Below, in pieces: positions 9,642-22,017 of a DNA stretch of 32,000 bases. Under the pieces are notes generated by a model that was given only the letters and a program-made list of their open reading frames with translations, had not been told where the DNA came from and ran no database searches. The translations under genes and the position numbers were made by a program. The DNA is from Nitrososphaera viennensis EN76 (GTDB lineage Archaea > Thermoproteota > Nitrososphaeria > Nitrososphaerales > Nitrososphaeraceae): assembly GCF_000698785.1 (NCBI RefSeq), contig NZ_CP007536.1, forward strand, positions 1,200,001 to 1,232,000, in the 5' to 3' direction. Each line of letters opens with the position of its first letter. Position 1 is the stretch's first letter.

Positions 9642-9657
9642 TAGTACACCGGCCGAA
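9642..9657 (+). promoter_or_regulatory. Motif copy 1: TAGTACA-CCGG-CCGAA
   Basis: Lies 36 nt upstream of ATG 9606. Read in the gene direction: TTCGG-ccgg-TGTACTA, 5 nt, CTAATTAAAGG (TATA), 21 nt, ATG. Confidence 0.6.
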
Positions 9658-11898: not shown

Positions 11899-11914
11899 TG
11901 GTACAAAGCCAGAA
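11899..11914 (+). promoter_or_regulatory. Motif copy 3: TGGTACA-AAGC-CAGAA
   Basis: Read in the gene direction: TTCTG-gctt-TGTACCA, 5 nt, TTTATTAGG (TATA), 24 nt, ATG 11860. Confidence 0.6.
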
Positions 11915-14716: not shown

Positions 14717-17683
14717 TTAGCTCTGACCTTTCATCGCCATACGGACGTTGCGCTTCAGGTCTGTTGCGCTCTTGGCGTACATCATGGCGCTTATCGCTAT
14801 GCCAGCGGCTATCGCGGGCCCGGCAAGGTCGGCAAGCGAAAAGCCGACGTTTGTCACAGGGCTTGCCGTTTCTTCTGGCGCGCCTGCGCCTCCCGGCTGC
14901 TGCGGCGCCGGCGCGGAAGGCTTGGCCGTTATCGCGATGCTGCCAAGGGCTGATCCTTGCTGTTCTGCAAACCAGATCTTGCCCTTGTCGTCAGCGACCA
15001 AGTATTGAATGGTCGAGCCCGAGGTCGGTATCTTGGCCTCAGCACTTGCCCCTGTCCTTGGATCGAATACGGCGACCCGGTCTATTGTGTGCAGTGCAAC
15101 CCATATGTTGCCATAGCTGTCAGCCGCCATTCCAAAGGGCAGGCCGGCGTCGTTCAGGGCAGGATACTCGCGGAACGTCTCAAAGAGCGGGTTGAATGCC
15201 GTGACAGTGTGCCCTTCATGCTCGGTGACAAAGAGGTCGTGGCCGTTTGGATCAGGGAATATGGAAGTAGGTATTATGAGCTTGTTCTGGCCCTTTGGCG
15301 CGTATTCCGTGATGTTGCCAGTTGCAGGATCTATGATTGCGATCTTGCCTACCGCCGATTCTGGCATCCACAGGTTGCCATTACGGTCTACCGATAGAGC
15401 TACAGGTCCGGAGTTGGGCGACGGTATATCTATTGCAGAGAATTTTTCAGAGCGTGGGTCAAACTTGAAGACTTTGTTTGGCTGAGACACTGGCATCCAC
15501 AGGTTGCCATTGCGATCTATTGCAAGACCTGTTGCTATGCCGTTTTCTGACAGTTGGAATTTGCGGTCTTGCTTTGTTTGTGGGTCGTACTGCCCAAGAT
15601 ATGATGGCAAGGATGTTGACGGTGGCGGCGGGCTAATATACCACAACTTGCCGTCGCTGCCAAGTGCCACCATTGTGACAAGGTTGGCACTATCTGGACG
15701 GCTGCTCAATTTGTGTACCGTATAGTTGCCTGTAGCAGTGTCAAATTGGAATATTCTGCTTGAACCCGGATTCGTGTCGCCGACCCATATCGACTGACGA
15801 GCCGCGTCGAATACAGGGTACAACAAGAGGCTCTTTTCCGGCGTCTTGTACTCCTTGACCTCAAATCCGAGGCTCGATATCGCCGGCCTTACAGTGACGT
15901 CAAGGCTTGCGACGATGTTTGACGCGGAGGAGCGCACGCCTTCCACCTGGATAGACCACACGCCCGGCAGGCTGAAAGCCGCGTCTGCGGCAAACGTGCC
16001 GTCCTGCTGGCGCGTCGTGTTGATGCTTATCGGGCCTATCCCCTTTTCGACCTGCGTAAGCTTTATCGTTGCAGCGCTGACGTCTGTAGCAGGCTTGTTG
16101 TCACTGCCAGCGAACGCAAGCGTGAACCTGTTCTGGCCCACGGCAAACGGGTCCACCGCGAGGTTTACCTTGCCGTCAGGAGCGTACAGCGTCTGGGTGA
16201 ATTTTGTGGATGCGGCAGCGGCTGTCTGCTGCGTGGCGGCAAACGCTTCCTGCGAATCCTGTGGCTTGCCGTACTGCGGGAACTCGCCGGCGGGAAGCGA
16301 GCTGTTGGCCATTATGGACACCATCAGGAGCAGCGCTATGCCGACGCCGGCCTCTGCCTTCAAGCTCTTGGCAAAGCGCCCATAGCCGTTTGACTGGACT
16401 GAAGAGCCCCCTACCATTGCGACCGTCGCCTTTTTCTGTATCACAAACTGCGAGTATCCGCCCATTGCGACCATCACGCCGGCAAGGCCCAGCTTGATCG
16501 CAAGGACCTTGCCGTACGTGGACGCAAGCGTCAATGAAAGGTCGCTCTCGATGAGGAAAAGCAAGAGAGGACCGGTTATGATCGCAATGCCAAGTATCGT
16601 GACCACTATTGTGGAAAAGCGCGGTATCAGGATTGAGATCGCTGCGGCCCTTGCGCGCTCGTCAGGCATCGCAAGGATCTTTGGCACTGCCACAAAGCCC
16701 ATCAGTATCAGGCCGCCTATCCAGATGCTTGCGGCGGTGTTGTGGAAAAAGTCAAGCAGGATTGCAGTTATCTGTCCGGTGGCCGCGCCATGCGCTATCA
16801 GGCTTGACGTCACGAGCACCGCAAGGCCCATTACGAGTATCGCAAGCATCTCGGCCCTGCTTGGGAGCGCGCCGGTCCGGGTCAGCTTGCGGTACACAAA
16901 CACAGCGATTATCATTAGGATGGACGACTCGATCATGCGCGTCGTCCAGACGTTGCCAAACTTGGTCGCTATCGCCTGGGCTATCCCCGCGTTGATGTCG
17001 ATCGCCTGCACGGCTATCATGGCAAAGTTTGAGCCAATCACGATGGCCGCGCCGATTATGATGAGTTTTACCATCTTCCGGTCGATTGCGGCGCGCTGGG
17101 AGGATATTGCGCCTGCAAGCCATGGCACGCGCGCAAGCGGCTTCCACAGCCACAGCGAGCCAAACGCCGCGCCCACAACTATCACCTGCCCGACCATGCC
17201 GGGGAACCTTGACGCCGACTCTAGTGGAGACAGGATCTGCGAGGGTGGCGTCGCAGGGCCCGCGCCAGGCGTTACGGCGGTGCCTATCCCAAACGTAAAG
17301 GCGCTTTCTACCACGTGGCCGTCAACTGCGGAAAGCACTCTTGTGGTGACGGTGTAGATGCCGTCAGGCAAGCCCGGCTGCAGTGAAACTCCAAGGGTCT
17401 GGGTGTCGCCTCCCACGTTGTGGGGGTCGTTCTTGTCGACCCGCGCTCCGTCAGGGGCAAGCACCGACATCGTGCTGTACGAGAGCTCTATCGGCTCTGT
17501 GAACGTGACCGTCACCTCTGCCGGCGAGGAAGACAAGCTCTGAAACGGTTTGGGAGAAGAGCTTACTGTTATCGGGTGTGCAAAGGACTGCTGCTGCGGC
17601 GGCATGCCTGCAATGGCGAGCGTCGCCACTACCATGGCAACGGCAACGACGTACAGCAGTGACTGTGGCCGGCCAGACAACAC
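14717..17683 (-). CDS. CopC-CopD-Ig-like fusion extended by a beta-propeller (NHL / streptogramin-lyase-like) and a C-terminal TM anchor
   Basis: Signal peptide ...PPQQQSFA|HPITVSSSP. CopC motif SAVDGHVVESAFTFG. About 8-10 CopD TM helices. Ig-like domain VNLAVDPFAVGQNRFTLAF...GVWSIQV. The propeller blades carry repeated D(R/S)xGNLW(M/V) motifs: DRNGNLWMP twice, DSYGNIWVA, DDKGKIWFA, GSDGKLWYI. The terminal TM helix is IAAGIAISAMMYA. Confidence 0.9.
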   Translation of the reverse strand: MLSGRPQSLLYVVAVAMVVATLAIAGMPPQQQSFAHPITVSSSPKPFQSLSSSPAEVTVTFTEPIELSYSTMSVLAPDGARVDKNDPHNVGGDTQTLGVSLQPGLPDGIYTVTTRVLSAVDGHVVESAFTFGIGTAVTPGAGPATPPSQILSPLESASRFPGMVGQVIVVGAAFGSLWLWKPLARVPWLAGAISSQRAAIDRKMVKLIIIGAAIVIGSNFAMIAVQAIDINAGIAQAIATKFGNVWTTRMIESSILMIIAVFVYRKLTRTGALPSRAEMLAILVMGLAVLVTSSLIAHGAATGQITAILLDFFHNTAASIWIGGLILMGFVAVPKILAMPDERARAAAISILIPRFSTIVVTILGIAIITGPLLLFLIESDLSLTLASTYGKVLAIKLGLAGVMVAMGGYSQFVIQKKATVAMVGGSSVQSNGYGRFAKSLKAEAGVGIALLLMVSIMANSSLPAGEFPQYGKPQDSQEAFAATQQTAAAASTKFTQTLYAPDGKVNLAVDPFAVGQNRFTLAFAGSDNKPATDVSAATIKLTQVEKGIGPISINTTRQQDGTFAADAAFSLPGVWSIQVEGVRSSASNIVASLDVTVRPAISSLGFEVKEYKTPEKSLLLYPVFDAARQSIWVGDTNPGSSRIFQFDTATGNYTVHKLSSRPDSANLVTMVALGSDGKLWYISPPPPSTSLPSYLGQYDPQTKQDRKFQLSENGIATGLAIDRNGNLWMPVSQPNKVFKFDPRSEKFSAIDIPSPNSGPVALSVDRNGNLWMPESAVGKIAIIDPATGNITEYAPKGQNKLIIPTSIFPDPNGHDLFVTEHEGHTVTAFNPLFETFREYPALNDAGLPFGMAADSYGNIWVALHTIDRVAVFDPRTGASAEAKIPTSGSTIQYLVADDKGKIWFAEQQGSALGSIAITAKPSAPAPQQPGGAGAPEETASPVTNVGFSLADLAGPAIAAGIAISAMMYAKSATDLKRNVRMAMKGQS
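15361..15511. repeat. Intragenic blade repeat: a 22-nt perfect repeat one blade (129 nt) apart
   Basis: CTGGCATCCACAGGTTGCCATT occurs at 15361-15382 and 15490-15511. Both copies encode the NGNLWMP blade motif. Confidence 0.85.
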
Positions 17684-17727
17684 GATCGTAATACGCGCCG
17701 GACCATATTTGACTCTTGCTTACTTTA

Positions 17728-17743
17728 TGGTACAAATCCCGAA
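17728..17743 (+). promoter_or_regulatory. Motif copy 5: TGGTACA-AATC-CCGAA
   Basis: Lies 45 nt upstream of GTG 17683. Read in the gene direction the motif abuts CATAAAGTAAG, and a second TATA-like AAATAT lies about 25 nt from the start. Confidence 0.6.
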
Positions 17744-17781
17744 CTGGAATCTTGAGTACAAATCCCGAACTGGAATCTTGA
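17730..17781 (+). repeat. Perfect 26-bp tandem duplication (two units), containing motif copies 5 and 6
   Basis: GTACAAATCCCGAACTGGAATCTTGA occurs at 17730-17755 and again at 17756-17781. Confidence 0.95.
17754..17769 (+). promoter_or_regulatory. Motif copy 6: GAGTACA-AATC-CCGAA (within the tandem duplicate)
   Basis: This is the second unit of the 26-bp tandem repeat. Confidence 0.5.
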
Positions 17782-17872
17782 TTTGTGGCTAATTACCTTG
17801 TAACTAGACCCACAGTTACCGTCGTACCAATGCCATGAAAAGGGTCGAGTATTATAGCATGGCACGATTCAT

Positions 17873-17882
17873 GTTTTAAACC
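17873..17882 (+). promoter_or_regulatory. Consensus TATA box GTTTTAAACC with no ORF downstream
   Basis: The same 10-mer forms the predicted TATA boxes of fbp (24841-24850) and ppdK (28503-28512). Here the next listed ORF start is about 300 nt away. Confidence 0.45.
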
Positions 17883-17908
17883 TTCTCACAAGATTACGGT
17901 AAAGATAT

Positions 17909-17924
17909 TTTACGGCTTTACGGC
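17909..17924 (+). repeat. Tandem 8-mer TTTACGGC (two units)
   Basis: Perfect duplication located at the predicted transcription start for the orphan TATA box. Confidence 0.8.
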
Positions 17925-17995
17925 AAATTTAATTAGCAGCGCTTACCACAGGTTACCATACGTTACGTTAAACCTAGGGTAAAACTTGACGCAAA

Positions 17996-18065
17996 GTAGC
18001 AGGTGGCTCTCACGCTCAGCGACCCTCGCTGATGGGTTGGGCGTGTTGGCCGGGCCACCTGCTAT
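17996..18065 (+). ncRNA. GC-rich structured element: long outer stem enclosing an inner hairpin; candidate small RNA or DNA structural site
   Basis: AGCAGGTGGC (17998-18007) pairs perfectly with GCCACCTGCT (18054-18063), extendable by T17997-A18064. The inner hairpin is TCAGCG-ACCCT-CGCTGA (18016-18032). It is a GC-rich patch inside AT-rich DNA and is flanked by paired TTACCA(C/T)A boxes. Confidence 0.3.
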
Positions 18066-18153
18066 TACTTCTGACTGCCTGTACTGATTTTAAACATTGC
18101 TGTCTTTACCATATTTTACAGTAATTTACCACATGCTCGAAAGGTAACAAAAT

Positions 18154-18213
18154 GTATGCCAAAGTATGCTAGAGTATGCAAAGGCATGCTAGAGTATGCA
18201 AAAACATGTTGAA
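18154..18213 (+). repeat. Six 10-bp-phased units built on GTATGC
   Basis: GTATGC starts at 18154, 18164, 18174 and 18194. GCATGC starts at 18184 and ACATGT at 18204. A 20-bp higher-order unit (18164-18183 against 18184-18203) is 18/20 identical. Confidence 0.85.
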
Positions 18214-18274
18214 AGAACTGCACGGGTGCGGCGGGCGAAAAGCTGCAGCAATAAAGTCATATAACAAGGCCATA

Positions 18275-18691
18275 ATGTCCAAGTCAATGTCTGTACTCGA
18301 TTACCTGCTTCATCATAGCACTGCCAGTTCTTCTATTCTAGTAGCGTTAGCGGTAGGTATTTTTACAATTTTGACACTGTTTACTCAAGTTGCTATTGGC
18401 TCATTTGCGTGGATAGTATTGTCAATCACCTATGTATTTACTTGTATTGCCGGCATTCTCATATTTCGCAATTGGGCCGTTGCAGAAATATTGTTACGTC
18501 ACTTCTCACAAGAGAATACAGGCGATACCGAAGTAAACCTGCATGCAATAGTCGGCGAAAGCAAGATAAGAAAGATGTTCTTTTTTGAACCATTTGCTAA
18601 CAAAGATACATTTTATCTGGCAGCGCTAATCGTGATTGTTTTCTTGGCTATCATCATTTGGGCTGCTTTTGCATTTCAACTCTACCACTAA
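18275..18691 (+). CDS. Small 3-TM membrane protein, unknown function (island ORF)
   Basis: MSKSMSVLDYLLHHSTASSSILVALAVGIFTILTLF... has three hydrophobic helices. The track start at 18176 would translate the GTATGC repeat array, so I prefer ATG 18275. The start remains uncertain. Confidence 0.5.
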   Translation: MSKSMSVLDYLLHHSTASSSILVALAVGIFTILTLFTQVAIGSFAWIVLSITYVFTCIAGILIFRNWAVAEILLRHFSQENTGDTEVNLHAIVGESKIRKMFFFEPFANKDTFYLAALIVIVFLAIIIWAAFAFQLYH

Positions 18692-18830
18692 CACCGTGGC
18701 CAGCATTTCACCAATCGTCATGAATGGGTCCATTGTGACAAGATTGGCACCCCTACGCACCTTGTAGTACCTTTCAAGGCGTTGTCGCACCCGTGCGCTT
18801 TTTATTCAAGCATATCTTTTTGCAGTATGA

Positions 18831-19265
18831 TTGTCATCTAACAAGAGCCAAGTCGATTTTGACTGTCCGTGGTGTGGCAAGTATCAAAGTAAACAGGTTT
18901 ACAACGGTGCAGAAACCGAGACGATTTGTTCAGAATGCAAAAAGCTCGTTGGTATTATTACAGATGCAACAGGCAAGCCTATAGTCATAGCCACAAAGGT
19001 GCATAAGTCAACGCTAACACTAAGCCCAGAAATGGCCGAGACCAAGCTCGGTAAGACCGAGGCCGATATTGAGAAGGCAAGAAAGGAGGCAGAAAGACGC
19101 GGTTTGGTGGTTGAAAGCAAAGTCTACGGTGCTGCGATTGAAATCATAGACAGATTGCGTGATCAGTTGAAACAACAAGACGAAATGTCGAAAGAAATTA
19201 TGAGATTGAAAGAACAAATCGAATTGCTTAACAAACGTATCGAGCTTTATAGAATACTCAAATGA
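18831..19265 (+). CDS. Zinc-ribbon plus coiled-coil protein (island ORF)
   Basis: CPWC-x17-CSEC zinc ribbon, then a long heptad-like C-terminus (EADIEKARKEAERRG...LKQQDEMSKEIMRLKEQIELLNKRIELY). The TTG start is supported by TATA CTTTTTATTC about 29 nt upstream. Confidence 0.6.
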   Translation: MSSNKSQVDFDCPWCGKYQSKQVYNGAETETICSECKKLVGIITDATGKPIVIATKVHKSTLTLSPEMAETKLGKTEADIEKARKEAERRGLVVESKVYGAAIEIIDRLRDQLKQQDEMSKEIMRLKEQIELLNKRIELYRILK

Positions 19266-19339
19266 TATCATATCTGGACGGACCTATTTTGACATTTCAA
19301 GCGAGTCAGATTCAGAAACCAACTAAGAATATTCAGTTG

Positions 19340-19355
19340 TGGTACAAATCCCGAA
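19340..19355 (+). promoter_or_regulatory. Motif copy 7: TGGTACA-AATC-CCGAA
   Basis: Lies 40 nt upstream of ATG 19396 and about 13 nt upstream of TATA GATTATAAGC. It is in the opposite orientation relative to its gene compared with copies 1-6. Confidence 0.55.
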
Positions 19356-19395
19356 CAATCATCAAAGATTATAAGCACTGCAAGATAATTTTTCC

Positions 19396-20088
19396 ATGAT
19401 GCTGATGAAAAAAGCCGCCCTTGCTCTTGCACTTGCAGTCCCGATCATCTTGCTTGCTGGACTTCCTGTTCGTCCAGCGTATGCCCACACCTCCACGGTG
19501 GCAGGCGACATCAAGATGGAGTTAGGCTGGGGAACAGAGCCCCCGCTTCTTGGGCAGATGAACACTGTCGTGGTTGAGGTGACGAGAGTCTCTGACGGCA
19601 AGCCGGTCGCAAACGCCTTTGCGTCTGCAAAATTGACCGTGATAAAGGGCGGCGACAGCAAGGACCTCGAAGTCCTTCCTGGAGAGGCTGCCGGCCTCTA
19701 TGTCGCGCAGATAATCCCGACGCAGCTTGGCCAGATAACGGCGAGCATAACAGGCACCATCGCCGGCCAGCAGGTGAACAACAGCGTCCAGATAGAAGAC
19801 GTAGAAGACACCAAGACGCTCAACTTCCCCGCGTCAAGCAACCCGAACCAGGGCGTCCCGCAGGACTTTGTAAACCAGATGCGCACGACCATATCCGACC
19901 TGACCGGCCAGATTGACGCTGCCAAGACGTCCGCGCAGAACGCAACCGACGCGGCTCAAAAGGCTGCTCAGGATGTTGAAGCGATAAAGGCAGAAGCCGA
20001 CAGGGCTTACCTGATTGGCATGACAGGCATCGGAGTGGGGGTCGCAGGCATCGCCATTGCAGCCCGCTCCCTTTCCCGCAAGGCCTAA
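19396..20088 (+). CDS. Exported protein with a mature N-terminal His, a beta-sandwich domain, a coiled coil and a C-terminal TM anchor
   Basis: Signal peptide ...LPVRPAYA|HTSTVAGDIKMELGWGTEPPLLGQMNTVVVEV, paralogous in pattern to 13884-14639 and 9670-10233. The Ala/Gln-rich helix is DAAKTSAQNATDAAQKAAQDVEAIKAEADRA. The TM helix is followed by RSLSRKA. Confidence 0.85.
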   Translation: MMLMKKAALALALAVPIILLAGLPVRPAYAHTSTVAGDIKMELGWGTEPPLLGQMNTVVVEVTRVSDGKPVANAFASAKLTVIKGGDSKDLEVLPGEAAGLYVAQIIPTQLGQITASITGTIAGQQVNNSVQIEDVEDTKTLNFPASSNPNQGVPQDFVNQMRTTISDLTGQIDAAKTSAQNATDAAQKAAQDVEAIKAEADRAYLIGMTGIGVGVAGIAIAARSLSRKA

Positions 20089-21189: not shown

Positions 21190-22017
21190 TTATAGCCTAA
21201 ACCCAAAGGCCTGCCCCTTGAAGCGCGCGACGCCTATCACTGCCACAAGCGATGCCGCAAGCACAAGCGCTGCAATCACGCCAAACTCTGGCACGACCAT
21301 AGTTCCGGTGATGTCAACCGACGTAGCGCCGGCCGGTGCCGTGAACTTTATCGTCGTCGAGTCTGTCGAGTTCGTTGACGTAAATTGCACAGTCTGGCCG
21401 TTTGCGGTGACACTCTGTATGCCATCTATCATGGCCTTTGGCAGCGTCACTTCCATTTCGCCGGCTTTGTCAAAAGCCACGTTGACCGACTCGCCTGCGG
21501 TGATAGTTGCAGCAGTCACCTTGGAGGTTGCAGACTTGCTGGTCACTGTGTAGCTCTTGCCGTCAAGCTGGGCTGTGGCTGTTCCTTCCTGCATCGTCGC
21601 AGTTCCGTTGCCACCAGTGCTGCCGCCTGCAGCCGCTACTGTGAGCGTGCCTACCATTGCAGGGTGGAGCGAGCAAAAGTACGGATATTCTCCTGCTTCT
21701 GTCGGCTTGAACTCAAGAGTCTTGGTCGGCGGAATGAGCACCGGGGTGCCGTCAGGCTTTTCGCCGAACTTGCCGTCCGGGGTCCCGCCTGAACCGGACT
21801 CTACAGTGTGCAGAGCGCCATCTTTGTTGGTCCAAATCACAGTATCTCCCACGTTGGCTTGGGCCGGGTTTGGAGAAAACGCGTCGTTTGTCTTGGTCGA
21901 CGCTCCCGGCACAATGGTGATGTTGACGGTCGCTGCAAAGGCTGCCTGGCTAGGGATAGCCAATACGGCCGCCAAAATAGCCGCCATGCCTGCAGCTAGT
22001 GCTATCTTTGCGTTCAT
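21190..22017 (-). CDS. Blue (type 1) copper protein, plastocyanin-like, with a second domain and a PEFG-CTERM tail
   Basis: I place the start at ATG 22017 (MNAKIALAAGMAAILAAVLAIPSQAAFA|ATV). Copper ligands: GALHTV (His) and YFCSLHPAMVG (Cys-x2-His-x2-Met). Tail VVPEFGVIAALVLAASLVAVIGVARFKG. The track's extension to 22149 overlaps the divergent gene. Confidence 0.9.
   Translation of the reverse strand: MNAKIALAAGMAAILAAVLAIPSQAAFAATVNITIVPGASTKTNDAFSPNPAQANVGDTVIWTNKDGALHTVESGSGGTPDGKFGEKPDGTPVLIPPTKTLEFKPTEAGEYPYFCSLHPAMVGTLTVAAAGGSTGGNGTATMQEGTATAQLDGKSYTVTSKSATSKVTAATITAGESVNVAFDKAGEMEVTLPKAMIDGIQSVTANGQTVQFTSTNSTDSTTIKFTAPAGATSVDITGTMVVPEFGVIAALVLAASLVAVIGVARFKGQAFGFRL

What the first reader, a model, noticed from the sequence alone, without database searches (positions are those of the whole stretch)
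17728..19356. 1.6-kb low-GC island inserted between two motif copies: identical 17-bp direct repeats and a 26-bp tandem duplication at the left junction
TGGTACAAATCCCGAAC is identical at 17728-17744 and 19340-19356, whereas the other motif copies differ in spacer and flanks. The left copy is part of a perfect 2 x 26-bp tandem repeat. Composition drops to roughly 40% GC between the repeats. The only ORFs are a 3-TM protein and a zinc-ribbon/coiled-coil protein, a content typical of small archaeal plasmid or virus remnants. No integrase is present. Two readings are possible. Either an element integrated into, and duplicated, the regulatory site shared by the divergent genes 14717-17683 and 19396-20088, or this is native AT-rich DNA between two identical operators.
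Basis: partly seen in the sequence, partly recalled or inferred. Interest (0 to 1): 0.65.

Follow-up and report, generated by a model that had tools for sequence, protein, structure and literature searches.

The report
Foreign DNA inserted in copper-response promoter
A 1.6-kb piece of foreign, AT-rich DNA sits inside the shared copper-responsive promoter of two Nitrososphaera viennensis genes, at a 15-17-bp regulatory motif that other Nitrososphaera populations also use as an insertion site, and it duplicated the motif so both flanking genes kept their copper regulation.

Summary
TGGTACAAATCCCGAAC occurs at 17728-17744 and 19340-19356. A perfect 2 x 26-bp tandem lies at 17730-17781. The 1595 bp between the repeats has 42% GC against 57.1% for the rest of the window.

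The window is Nitrososphaera viennensis. In Ca. N. evergladensis, two other long contigs and 23 further Nitrososphaera genome assemblies, the CopC/D_b and 230-aa genes are adjacent. About 100 bp separates them, with a single motif copy exactly at the junction.

The motif is the published Cu-limitation promoter motif (Reyes 2020). That paper noted it "twice in front of copC/D_b" without explaining why.

The same nucleotide position is occupied in other Nitrososphaera by at least six unrelated low-GC inserts of 0.3-10 kb. Every insert that could be read across is flanked by a duplicated core. The 10-kb insert has a tyrosine-recombinase-like gene beside attL.

Best explanation: the island is an integrase-less remnant, or a satellite, of a site-specifically integrated element at an att hot spot that coincides with an operator.

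Published RNA-seq shows both flanking genes are still Cu-induced. The two island genes are weakly expressed and not Cu-responsive.

This is a new member of a known kind, of moderate interest.

The parts
14717..17683 (-). Left flanking host gene CopC/D_b (NVIE_014310). It has CopC and CopD domains plus a C-terminal beta-propeller, and it is Cu-limitation induced.
   Evidence: Pfam CopC, CopD and Vgb_lyase/SGL. Published log2FC +2.20.
17703..17727 (-). Conserved promoter block of CopC/D_b (CCATATTTGACTCTTGCTT...). On the minus strand it reads as a TATA-like AAATAT.
   Evidence: Conserved in about 26 genome and about 60 metagenome orthologous intergenic regions. Its role as a promoter is inferred.
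17728..17744 (.). attL, the left copy of the 17-bp direct repeat TGGTACAAATCCCGAAC. It is also the Cu-limitation promoter motif (reverse complement TTCGGGATTTGTACCA).
   Evidence: Motif identity with TTCSGSMTTTGWACYANT of Reyes 2020.
17730..17781 (.). Perfect 2 x 26-bp tandem repeat. Each unit is the 15-bp core plus 11 bp of island-side sequence (TGGAATCTTGA), so the second unit supplies a third core copy at 17756-17770.
   Evidence: The origin of the duplication is unexplained.
17745..19339 (.). The inserted island, 1595 bp, 42% GC. It is absent from all related genomes examined.
17782..18140 (+). Non-coding left arm with iteron-like TTAC[CG] repeats. There are 12 copies, 10 on the + strand, in clusters spaced 8-10 bp. 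These are candidate recombinase arm sites or replication-protein sites.
   Evidence: 12 observed against 1.6 expected, and 0 of 2000 shuffles reach 12. The function is inferred.
17995..18066 (.). GC-rich stem-loop (a 15-bp outer stem, GTAGCAGGTGGCTCT...GGGCCACCTGCTAT) set in AT-rich DNA.
   Evidence: dG -43.3 kcal/mol, z -2.7. No Rfam or tRNA match. Its significance is marginal.
18140..18208 (+). Five to six copies of a 10-bp periodic repeat (A/T)GTATGC, directly upstream of ORF1.
   Evidence: Family D1.
18275..18691 (+). ORF1 (NVIE_014320), a 138-aa protein with three hydrophobic helices. It is weakly expressed and not Cu-responsive.
   Evidence: Hydropathy profile. Two homologues of about 52% identity on short ENA contigs with different neighbours. 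Expression 5.47 to 4.95, not significant.
18831..19265 (+). ORF2 (NVIE_014330), 144 aa with a TTG start. It has an N-terminal CxxC...CxxC zinc ribbon and a single long helix (residues 69-143).
   Evidence: Alignment. AF2 model, pLDDT 76. 74% homologue P0001 on an unrelated 2-kb contig. Expression 6.40 to 6.01, not significant.
19340..19356 (.). attR, the right copy of the 17-bp direct repeat and Cu-motif.
19364..19376 (+). Conserved AAAGATTATAAGC block, a BRE/TATA-like element of the 230-aa gene. It follows the core at the same short distance as in empty sites.
   Evidence: Conserved in the orthologous regions. Its role as a promoter is inferred.
19396..20088 (+). Right flanking host gene (NVIE_014340), a 230-aa exported protein. 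It is conserved in Nitrososphaera and Cu-limitation induced.
   Evidence: 193 homologues. Log2FC +1.44.

Best explanation
The island (17745-19339) is horizontally acquired DNA that entered the N. viennensis lineage by site-specific recombination. The attachment site is the 15-17-bp core GTACAAAnnCCGAA(C). This core is also the Cu-limitation promoter motif lying between the divergent promoters of CopC/D_b and the 230-aa exported protein.

Recombination between an attP on a circular element and this attB produced attL (17728-17744) and attR (19340-19356). It therefore gave each flanking gene its own copy of the motif with its native TATA region. Both genes stayed Cu-regulated.

The element now lacks an integrase. 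It is either a deletion remnant or a non-autonomous satellite moved in trans. It carries two weakly expressed genes of unknown function and a non-coding arm full of short repeats.

Shown here: the insertion, its exact borders, its foreign composition, recurrent use of the same site by other inserts, and an integrase-like gene next to attL in the largest of them. Shown in the literature: retained Cu induction of both flanks.

Inferred: that a tyrosine recombinase made the window's insertion, that the integrase was lost afterwards, and what the internal repeats and the 26-bp tandem do.
For: 1. Empty sites. N. evergladensis (L038), L039 and L040 have ...CTTGCTTACTTTATGGTACAAACCCCGAACAATCATCAAAGATTATAAGCAC... 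or close variants. This is the window's left flank, one core and the window's right flank. In 23 more genome assemblies with both genes, the genes are adjacent and there is no ORF1 or ORF2 hit. After removing duplicates there are 59 distinct empty sites.
2. Foreign composition. GC is 0.42 against 0.571, and GC3 is 0.38/0.45 against 0.63-0.70.
3. Hot spot. At the same nucleotide position, other Nitrososphaera contigs carry inserts with core-to-core spacings of 294 bp (L031, L049, L085), 593 bp (L104), 1705 bp (L064), 2150 bp (L072, L102), 2241 bp (L062) and 10123 bp (L065). Each is bounded by a second core followed by the normal TATA block and the 230-aa gene. All have 0.40-0.45 GC against 0.46-0.54 in their flanks.
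4. Integrase-like gene. The L065 insert encodes a 406-aa protein ending 23 bp from the attL core. It matches integrases: PHROG_1 at E 2.7e-11, phrog_216 at 3.8e-8, Pfam Phage_integrase at 1.4e-4 (below the cut-off), and PDB 4a8e XerC-like recombinase at 1e-3.
5. Decay to an integrase-less form. L062 shares both termini and internal fragments with L065 but lacks the integrase region, so such derivatives arise at this site.
6. Core composition. The left cores of L031, L049 and L104 read GTACAACCAYCGAAC. Position 7 is A in 58 of 59 empty sites. This fits attL receiving the right part of its core from an element, with crossover in or next to GTACAA.
7. No terminal inverted repeats at the island ends.
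8. Thaumarchaeal att sites have a median length of 17 bp, and 15 of 68 iMGEs sit in intergenic DNA (PMC6563490).
9. Expression. CopC/D_b has log2FC +2.20 and the 230-aa gene +1.44 under Cu limitation. ORF1 (-0.27) and ORF2 (-0.16) do not change significantly and are expressed far lower (PMC7785015 Dataset S1).
Against: - No integrase or integrase fragment lies in the island or anywhere in the 32-kb window.
- The five catalogued N. viennensis iMGEs use unrelated att sequences, so no resident cognate integrase is known.
- The island shares no sequence with the other inserts beyond the core. Its membership in the same element family therefore rests on the shared site alone.
- No circle junction was found in JGI metagenomes (0 matches). 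The island-side junction sequence is absent from IMG/VR (0 matches).
- The island has no hit in phage, plasmid or IMG/VR collections.
- The L065 integrase match covers mainly the N-terminal half. By eye, the first catalytic Arg seems replaced (AGLEP instead of AGLR), so its activity is unproven.
- Most inserts carry small secreted or membrane proteins and no mobile-element hallmark genes.
- The perfect 26-bp tandem at attL is not predicted by simple tyrosine-recombinase integration.
Confidence: 0.7

Rival explanations
1. The site is an accessory-gene slot maintained without a dedicated integrase. Copies of the Cu-motif act as short homology patches. Circular or ectopic DNA carrying a motif copy recombines with the chromosomal copy, so cassettes flanked by operators are shuffled into the copper cluster. 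The duplicated motif reflects each gene bringing its own operator.
For: The motif occurs upstream of several genes of the cluster and 12 times in the genome. DNA next to a second motif copy (11899) also differs between genomes. Many inserts carry small secreted or membrane proteins, like the cluster's own genes, and no mobile-element hallmark genes. No integrase is in the window.
Against: Homology of 14-17 bp is very short for homologous recombination. Yet the junction is nucleotide-exact in at least seven independent insert types. The island genes are not Cu-regulated and are compositionally foreign. One insert carries an integrase-like gene directly at attL. No duplicated motif was seen at the second variable place.
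Confidence: 0.13
2. The island is a non-autonomous transposon (MITE-like or casposon-derived) that made a 17-bp target-site duplication when it inserted.
For: Direct repeats flank the insert. Casposons with 14-15-bp duplications exist in Thaumarchaeota, and one in N. evergladensis is intergenic (PMC6563490). No integrase is present.
Against: There are no terminal inverted repeats. Only 3 of the first 20 terminal bases match, and the best local match is no better than shuffles. No transposase or Cas1 is present. Unrelated inserts always duplicate the same sequence at the same position, which points to site-specific recombination and not to staggered cuts at arbitrary targets. In L031 and L104 the two copies differ in a way a target duplication would not produce at the time of insertion.
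Confidence: 0.07
3. The AT-rich segment is ancestral native DNA between two operators, and it was deleted precisely in the other lineages.
For: Recombination between the two identical repeats would give exactly the observed empty site.
Against: This needs loss in every one of about 26 other genomes and about 59 distinct metagenomic sites, spanning 38-81% protein identity. The island has foreign GC and GC3. Its genes have almost no relatives in Nitrososphaera. Other lineages carry different inserts at the same point.
Confidence: 0.02

Closest known systems
Cryptic integrated elements (iMGE) of Thaumarchaeota (Krupovic et al. 2019, PMC6563490), for example NitMar-E2 with a 17-bp intergenic att site
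   Same: Short direct repeats (median 17 bp). An intergenic target in 15 of 68 cases. Lower GC than the host. Verification by an empty site in N. viennensis or N. evergladensis. Cargo of unknown function.
   Different: All catalogued elements were found through an integrase or a hallmark gene and are 5-75 kb long. This one is 1.6 kb, has no integrase and is not in their table (NitVie-E1 to E5 lie elsewhere and use other att sequences). Its att site coincides with a transcription-factor motif inside a divergent promoter.
Cu-limitation promoter motif TTCSGSMTTTGWACYANT of N. viennensis (Reyes et al. 2020, PMC7785015)
   Same: The direct repeat is this motif read on the other strand (TTCGGGATTTGTACCA). 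The paper already recorded it 'twice in front of copC/D_b' and on the opposite strand upstream of NVIE_014340.
   Different: The paper treats the copies only as regulatory sites. It does not report that NVIE_014320 and NVIE_014330 are an insertion, that the copies are its att repeats, or that the site is a recurrent insertion point.
Decayed integrated elements at att sites in Sulfolobales (pNOB8-type integrase elements and their remnants; my own knowledge of She et al. 2002/2004, which are cited in PMC6563490)
   Same: Site-specific integration by a tyrosine recombinase whose gene stays intact next to one att site. Gene loss follows and leaves short remnants bounded by att repeats. The same site is reused.
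   Different: Those elements mostly target tRNA genes with 29-69-bp att sites. Here the target is a promoter motif of 14-17 bp.
Integron gene cassettes
   Same: Small inserts of one to three genes, without an integrase, at one fixed chromosomal recombination site and bounded by repeated short sites.
   Different: There is no adjacent IntI gene, no attC-like imperfect palindrome at cassette ends, and no arrays of cassettes. This is a resemblance only.

Membership tests
Site-specifically integrated mobile element (tyrosine-recombinase iMGE) | Insert bounded by direct repeats (attL/attR) identical or nearly identical to a single attB in uninfected relatives | tested here: met
   17-bp repeats at 17728 and 19340. 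A single copy lies at the junction in L038, L039 and L040 and in about 59 distinct empty sites.
Site-specifically integrated mobile element (tyrosine-recombinase iMGE) | Integrase gene inside the element, usually next to an att site | tested here: not met
   None in the island or the window. It is met only in another insert at the same site, L065: a 406-aa integrase-like ORF 23 bp from attL.
Site-specifically integrated mobile element (tyrosine-recombinase iMGE) | Composition and gene content foreign to the host | tested here: met
   GC 0.42 against 0.571, and GC3 0.38/0.45 against 0.63-0.70. ORF1 and ORF2 are absent from the related genomes.
Site-specifically integrated mobile element (tyrosine-recombinase iMGE) | Excised circular form or attP junction detectable | tested here: not met
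   The circle-junction pattern has 0 matches in JGI metagenomes. The island-side junction sequence has 0 matches in IMG/VR. Raw reads of N. viennensis could not be searched.
Site-specifically integrated mobile element (tyrosine-recombinase iMGE) | Mobile-element hallmark genes (replication, capsid or conjugation) | tested here: not met
   Pfam and PHROG scans, fold search, and phage, plasmid and IMG/VR searches gave nothing specific.
IS element, MITE or other DDE transposon | Terminal inverted repeats | tested here: not met
   3 of 20 anchored identities. The best local score of 6 equals the shuffle mean of 5.8.
IS element, MITE or other DDE transposon | Transposase gene, or multiple dispersed copies with differing target duplications | tested here: inconclusive
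   No transposase is present and there is no second copy in the 32-kb window. The rest of the genome was not available.
Casposon | Cas1 casposase, family B polymerase and terminal inverted repeats | tested here: not met
   No such genes and no inverted repeats. Only the repeat length is similar.
Integron cassette | Adjacent IntI integrase with attI, and attC recombination sites at cassette ends | tested here: not met
   No integrase in the window. The ends carry the same direct core, not attC-type palindromes.
Cu-limitation regulon promoter motif (Reyes 2020) | Match to TTCSGSMTTTGWACYANT at -35 to -70 from the start codon of Cu-limitation-induced genes | tested here: met
   No mismatch to the first 16 positions at 17728-17743 and 19340-19355, and 1 mismatch at 17754. 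The copies lie 41-56 nt from the starts at 17683 and 19396. Both genes are induced.

The most novel reading that the evidence does not exclude
The Cu-limitation operator could itself be the recombination site of a family of small cassettes without an integrase, moved in trans by an integrase like the L065 one. The CopC/D_b / NVIE_014340 promoter would then be an integron-like accessory-gene slot in soil ammonia-oxidising archaea. Every integration would automatically duplicate the operator. This keeps the flanking copper genes regulated and could place cargo under, or next to, copper control. The 26-bp tandem and the other 'repeated' motif reported in the N. viennensis genome would be footprints of such traffic.
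Probability: 0.12. Interest if true: 0.7.

Novelty: new member of a known kind. Interest (0 to 1): 0.4.

Why it matters
- It explains a published oddity in a model ammonia-oxidising archaeon. The Cu-response motif is 'found twice' before copC/D_b, and again on the 'wrong' strand before NVIE_014340, because an insertion split one shared operator.
- It shows that NVIE_014320 and NVIE_014330 are foreign passengers and not part of the copper cluster.
- It adds to the thaumarchaeal mobilome an integration site that integrase-based screens miss. About one site in six is occupied in environmental Nitrososphaera.
- It gives a clear natural case of an att site overlapping a transcription-factor site, where the integration chemistry itself preserves regulation of both neighbours.
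- For genetics in N. viennensis, which lacks tools, a naturally permissive and recurrently used insertion site with a candidate integrase could be of practical use.

Tried and rejected
- tRNA and Rfam searches of the window and the island found nothing, so there is no tRNA-type att site and no known RNA family.
- Island DNA against GenBank phages and PLSDB plasmids in blastn distant mode gave no match.
- The ORF2 profile and the L065 integrase against IMG/VR found no relative.
- Junction patterns in IMG/VR had 0 matches.
- The circle junction GTTGTGGTACAAATCCCGAACTGGA in JGI metagenomes had 0 matches.
- Pfam and PHROG scans of ORF1 and ORF2 gave only sub-threshold or generic zinc-ribbon hits.
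- The AF2 model of ORF2 against PDB and BFVD gave no match with E below 0.1. The best matches are generic zinc-ribbon proteins.
- Contexts of ORF1 and ORF2 homologues are short contigs with different neighbours and no linkage between the two genes. Distant homologues of the ORF2 C-terminal helix sit in ordinary chromosomal contexts of small-genome archaea. The domain is therefore not a mobile-element marker.
- The terminal inverted repeat test was negative.
- Similarity between the window island and the other inserts is nil beyond the core.
N. evergladensis was recovered by protein look-up instead. N. gargensis was not examined.
Full report

Yes. TGGTACAAATCCCGAAC is present at 17728-17744 and again at 19340-19356. 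The left copy overlaps a perfect, exactly two-unit tandem of GTACAAATCCCGAACTGGAATCTTGA at 17730-17781. The 15-nt core is therefore present three times without mismatch. With up to 3 mismatches there are 4 matches against 0.56 expected, and no shuffle out of 100 reaches 4.

The 1595 bp between the repeats has 42.0% GC, against 57.1% for the rest of the window. It is the lowest such stretch in the window, and the next lowest elsewhere is 53.7%. Third-codon-position GC of its two ORFs is 0.38 and 0.45, against 0.63-0.70 in neighbouring genes.

- ORF1 has three hydrophobic helices. Its real start is probably 18275 (138 aa), judged from homologues and public gene calls.
- ORF2 (18831-19265) has CxxC-N18-CxxC followed by one long helix.

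There is no integrase, transposase, tRNA or Rfam family in the island or elsewhere in the window.

**2. Where the window comes from**

Window 9396-30088 is 100% identical to CP103305.1, a 2.52-Mb genome, and to many contigs from sequencing runs of the same strain. The locus tags and gene order match Nitrososphaera viennensis EN76 as used in Reyes et al. 2020. The surrounding genes form the copper cluster: two CopC/D fusions, an ArsR-type regulator, a plastocyanin-like protein and several exported proteins.

**3. The empty-site test**

In Ca. N. evergladensis SR1 (the 230-aa protein is 81% identical), the orthologues of the two flanking genes are divergent neighbours 103 bp apart. The intergenic sequence reads ...CCGGACCATATTTGACTCTTGCTTACTTTATGGTACAAACCCCGAACAATCATCAAAGATTATAAGCACTG.... 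That is the window's left flank, one core and the window's right flank, with nothing missing and nothing added.

Two long JGI contigs (72% and 68% identical) show the same arrangement. In 23 further Nitrososphaera genome assemblies that carry both genes, the genes are adjacent, and none encodes a relative of ORF1 or ORF2.

The island is therefore an insertion in the N. viennensis lineage. Its borders are defined to within the 17-bp repeat.

**4. What the repeat is**

Read on the other strand, the repeat is TTCGGGATTTGTACCA. This is the motif TTCSGSMTTTGWACYANT that Reyes et al. (PMC7785015) found 12 times upstream of Cu-limitation-induced genes. They noted it 'twice in front of copC/D_b (NVIE_014310)' and on the opposite strand upstream of NVIE_014340. 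Those observations correspond to the 26-bp tandem and to attR.

In the orthologous intergenic regions the architecture is conserved:
- A TATA-like block for CopC/D_b (ATATTTGACTCTTGCTT).
- The core. GTACAA and CCGAA are invariant and position 7 is A in 58 of 59 sites. My search patterns required GTACAA and CGAA, so their invariance is partly by construction.
- About 8 bp further on, AAAGATTATAA for the 230-aa gene.

Weaker copies lie in front of other minus-strand genes of the cluster, at 9642, 10243, 11899 and 14677. That the copies flank an insertion is not in that paper. The island is also missing from the catalogue of thaumarchaeal integrated elements, which lists NitVie-E1 to E5 at other places with other att sequences.

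**5. The site is used again and again**

A metagenome scan used the conserved left flank plus core, a pattern that catches empty and occupied sites alike. It returned 62 contigs. After pooling with the genome loci and removing duplicates, 59 distinct sites are empty and 12 distinct sequences are occupied immediately after ...CGAA(N).

Where the contig is long enough, a second core follows. After it come the normal TATA block and the 230-aa gene. The core-to-core spacings are:

| Contigs | Spacing (bp) |
|---|---|
| L031, L049, L085 | 294 |
| L104 | 593 |
| L064 | 1705 |
| L072, L102 | 2150 |
| L062 | 2241 |
| L065 | 10123 |

L077 and L099 are a further type, cut by the contig end.

All inserts are AT-richer than their flanks, at 0.40-0.45 against 0.46-0.54. 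Groups of inserts share 40-70 bp at both ends but differ inside. None resembles the window's island beyond the core.

The cargo consists of small secreted or membrane proteins, a response-regulator receiver domain and similar genes.

The 10-kb insert is different. A 406-aa ORF ends 23 bp from its attL core and matches integrases: PHROG_1 at E 2.7e-11, phrog_216 at 3.8e-8, Pfam Phage_integrase and its SAM-like N-domain below cut-off, and the Pyrococcus XerC-like recombinase 4a8e at 1e-3. L062 has the same two ends and scattered fragments of L065 but lacks the integrase region. This shows directly that integrase-less derivatives arise at this site.

**6. Mechanism**

The most economical account is tyrosine-recombinase integration of circular elements whose attP contains the host core. 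Five observations fit it:
- The junction is nucleotide-exact in unrelated inserts.
- The repeats are 14-17 bp long. Thaumarchaeal att sites have a median of 17 bp, and 15 of 68 are intergenic.
- An integrase-like gene sits at attL in the largest insert.
- The island has no terminal inverted repeats.
- In L031, L049 and L104 the left core reads GTACAACCAYCGAAC. C at position 7 is not seen in any of the 59 empty sites. This is as expected if attL takes the part of the core to the right of GTACAA from the element.

The island's left arm carries 12 TTAC[CG] repeats against 1.6 expected, mostly in one orientation and spaced 8-10 bp. It also has a GC-rich hairpin and a 10-bp periodic repeat before ORF1. 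These look like protein-binding arrays of a mobile element, either arm sites or an origin. Their role is only inferred.

Several things are not shown for the window's island:
- That an integrase made the insertion.
- Whether the integrase was lost afterwards or acted in trans.
- Whether the element can still excise. No circle junction was found.

The perfect 26-bp tandem is unexplained. It has no microhomology at its borders, and simple integration does not produce it. Slippage, or a footprint of repeated integration, are guesses.

**7. Consequence for the host**

Because the crossover lies in the operator, each flanking gene kept a full promoter consisting of the motif plus its own TATA block at the native spacing. 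Published RNA-seq agrees (PMC7785015 Dataset S1):

| Gene | Identity | Expression (replete to Cu-limited) | log2FC |
|---|---|---|---|
| NVIE_014310 | CopC/D_b | 8.94 to 11.02 | +2.20 |
| NVIE_014340 | 230-aa exported protein | 10.69 to 11.96 | +1.44 |
| NVIE_014320 | ORF1 | 5.47 to 4.95 | -0.27, not significant |
| NVIE_014330 | ORF2 | 6.40 to 6.01 | -0.16, not significant |

The island genes are thus silent-ish passengers, not members of the copper regulon.

**8. The island genes**

ORF1 has only two homologues, about 52% identical, on 0.7-1-kb ENA contigs.

ORF2 has one 74% homologue on a 2-kb JGI contig with different neighbours. Its C-terminal helix belongs to a small family of 60 clusters among 1.8 billion representatives. 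That family also occurs in ordinary chromosomal contexts of small-genome archaea.

The AF2 model (pLDDT 76) shows a five-stranded zinc ribbon and one 75-residue helix. No structural match is better than E 0.1. Function is unknown. A DNA-binding or oligomerising role is a guess.

**9. Rivals**

- Operator-mediated cassette shuffling without an integrase (0.13) is kept alive by three points: the cargo types, the absence of an integrase in most inserts, and variable DNA next to a second motif copy. However, 14-17 bp is short for homologous recombination, and the exactness of the junction argues against it.
- A transposon with a 17-bp target duplication (0.07) fails the inverted-repeat and transposase tests. 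It also does not explain why unrelated inserts duplicate the same sequence.
- Ancestral DNA lost everywhere else (0.02) is not credible given the phylogenetic spread of empty sites and the foreign composition.

**10. Verdict**

In kind it is a small, integrase-less integrated element or remnant flanked by att repeats, which is known biology in Thaumarchaeota. Three things are new: this particular element, the coincidence of its att site with the published Cu-limitation operator (which explains the published duplicated motif), and the recurrent use of this one site by diverse inserts in environmental Nitrososphaera. Interest is moderate.

Noticed in passing
window 11899-11914; L038 4152, L039 6669, L040 4092: A second copy of the Cu-motif (GGTACAAAGCCAGAAT) lies upstream of the 135-aa gene and is conserved at the orthologous place in three other genomes. 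The DNA to its right differs between them. The window and N. evergladensis have CopC/D_a plus a 251-aa gene. L039 has about 370 bp of non-coding DNA. L040 has about 2.8 kb with a CNNM/CBS transporter. No duplicated motif was seen there.
   Followed up: partly
L040 4540-4700: Long nested palindromic repeats built from GGAACGGTTCCG and AAAAAGAAC units lie in the variable segment next to the second motif copy. Their nature is unknown.
   Followed up: no
window 17782-18140: TTAC[CG] occurs 12 times against 1.6 expected, and 0 of 2000 shuffles reach 12. Ten copies are on the + strand, in clusters spaced 8-10 bp. The array looks like iterons or arm sites in the island's non-coding arm.
   Followed up: partly
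window 17995-18066: A GC-rich stem-loop lies in otherwise AT-rich DNA (dG -43 kcal/mol, z -2.7). It has no Rfam or tRNA match. One public contig of the same strain (L006) starts at 17978, just upstream of it.
   Followed up: partly
window 18140-18208: Five to six copies of a 10-bp periodic repeat (A/T)GTATGC lie directly upstream of the probable ORF1 start at 18275. The annotated 171-aa ORF that starts inside this repeat is probably too long.
   Followed up: partly
window 18809-18857 (starts of L007-L011): Five independent Logan contigs of the same strain begin within 50 bp of the ORF2 start, and several end at 21275. These could be transcript ends or coverage breaks. The run types could not be checked.
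   Followed up: no
L110 1-20: This is the contig of the next-closest relative after N. evergladensis (230-aa protein 77% identical). It begins inside the core (TCCCGAACGATCATCAAAG) and shares the rare T at core position 8 with the window. An assembly break exactly there may hint at an occupied/empty polymorphism in that population.
   Followed up: no
L065 2383-3900 and 7076-8011 (minus strand): The 10-kb insert at the same att site encodes a 505-aa protein with tape-measure-like composition and a 311-aa protein with a weak HEPN (RiboL-PSP) match. These hint at a virus- or defence-related element.
   Followed up: partly
L077 insert, 144-aa ORF (positions 494-928 counted from the left att core, minus strand): The cargo protein of another insert type ends in a plastocyanin-like ...EFGYHGRPWERGTVIV... 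segment that lacks the Cys ligand. Some cargo at this site may be related to copper proteins.
   Followed up: no
window 18831-19265 (ORF2, residues 68-137): The C-terminal helix carries a strongly conserved motif (AERR..V.E.K.YGAAIEIIDRLRDQLK). Proteins of Pacearchaeota-like and other small-genome archaea share it, attached to different N-terminal domains. The family is uncharacterised.
   Followed up: partly
window 15361-15382 and 15490-15511: A 22-bp exact direct repeat (CTGGCATCCACAGGTTGCCATT) lies inside the beta-propeller part of CopC/D_b. It most likely reflects internal repeat units of the propeller.
   Followed up: no
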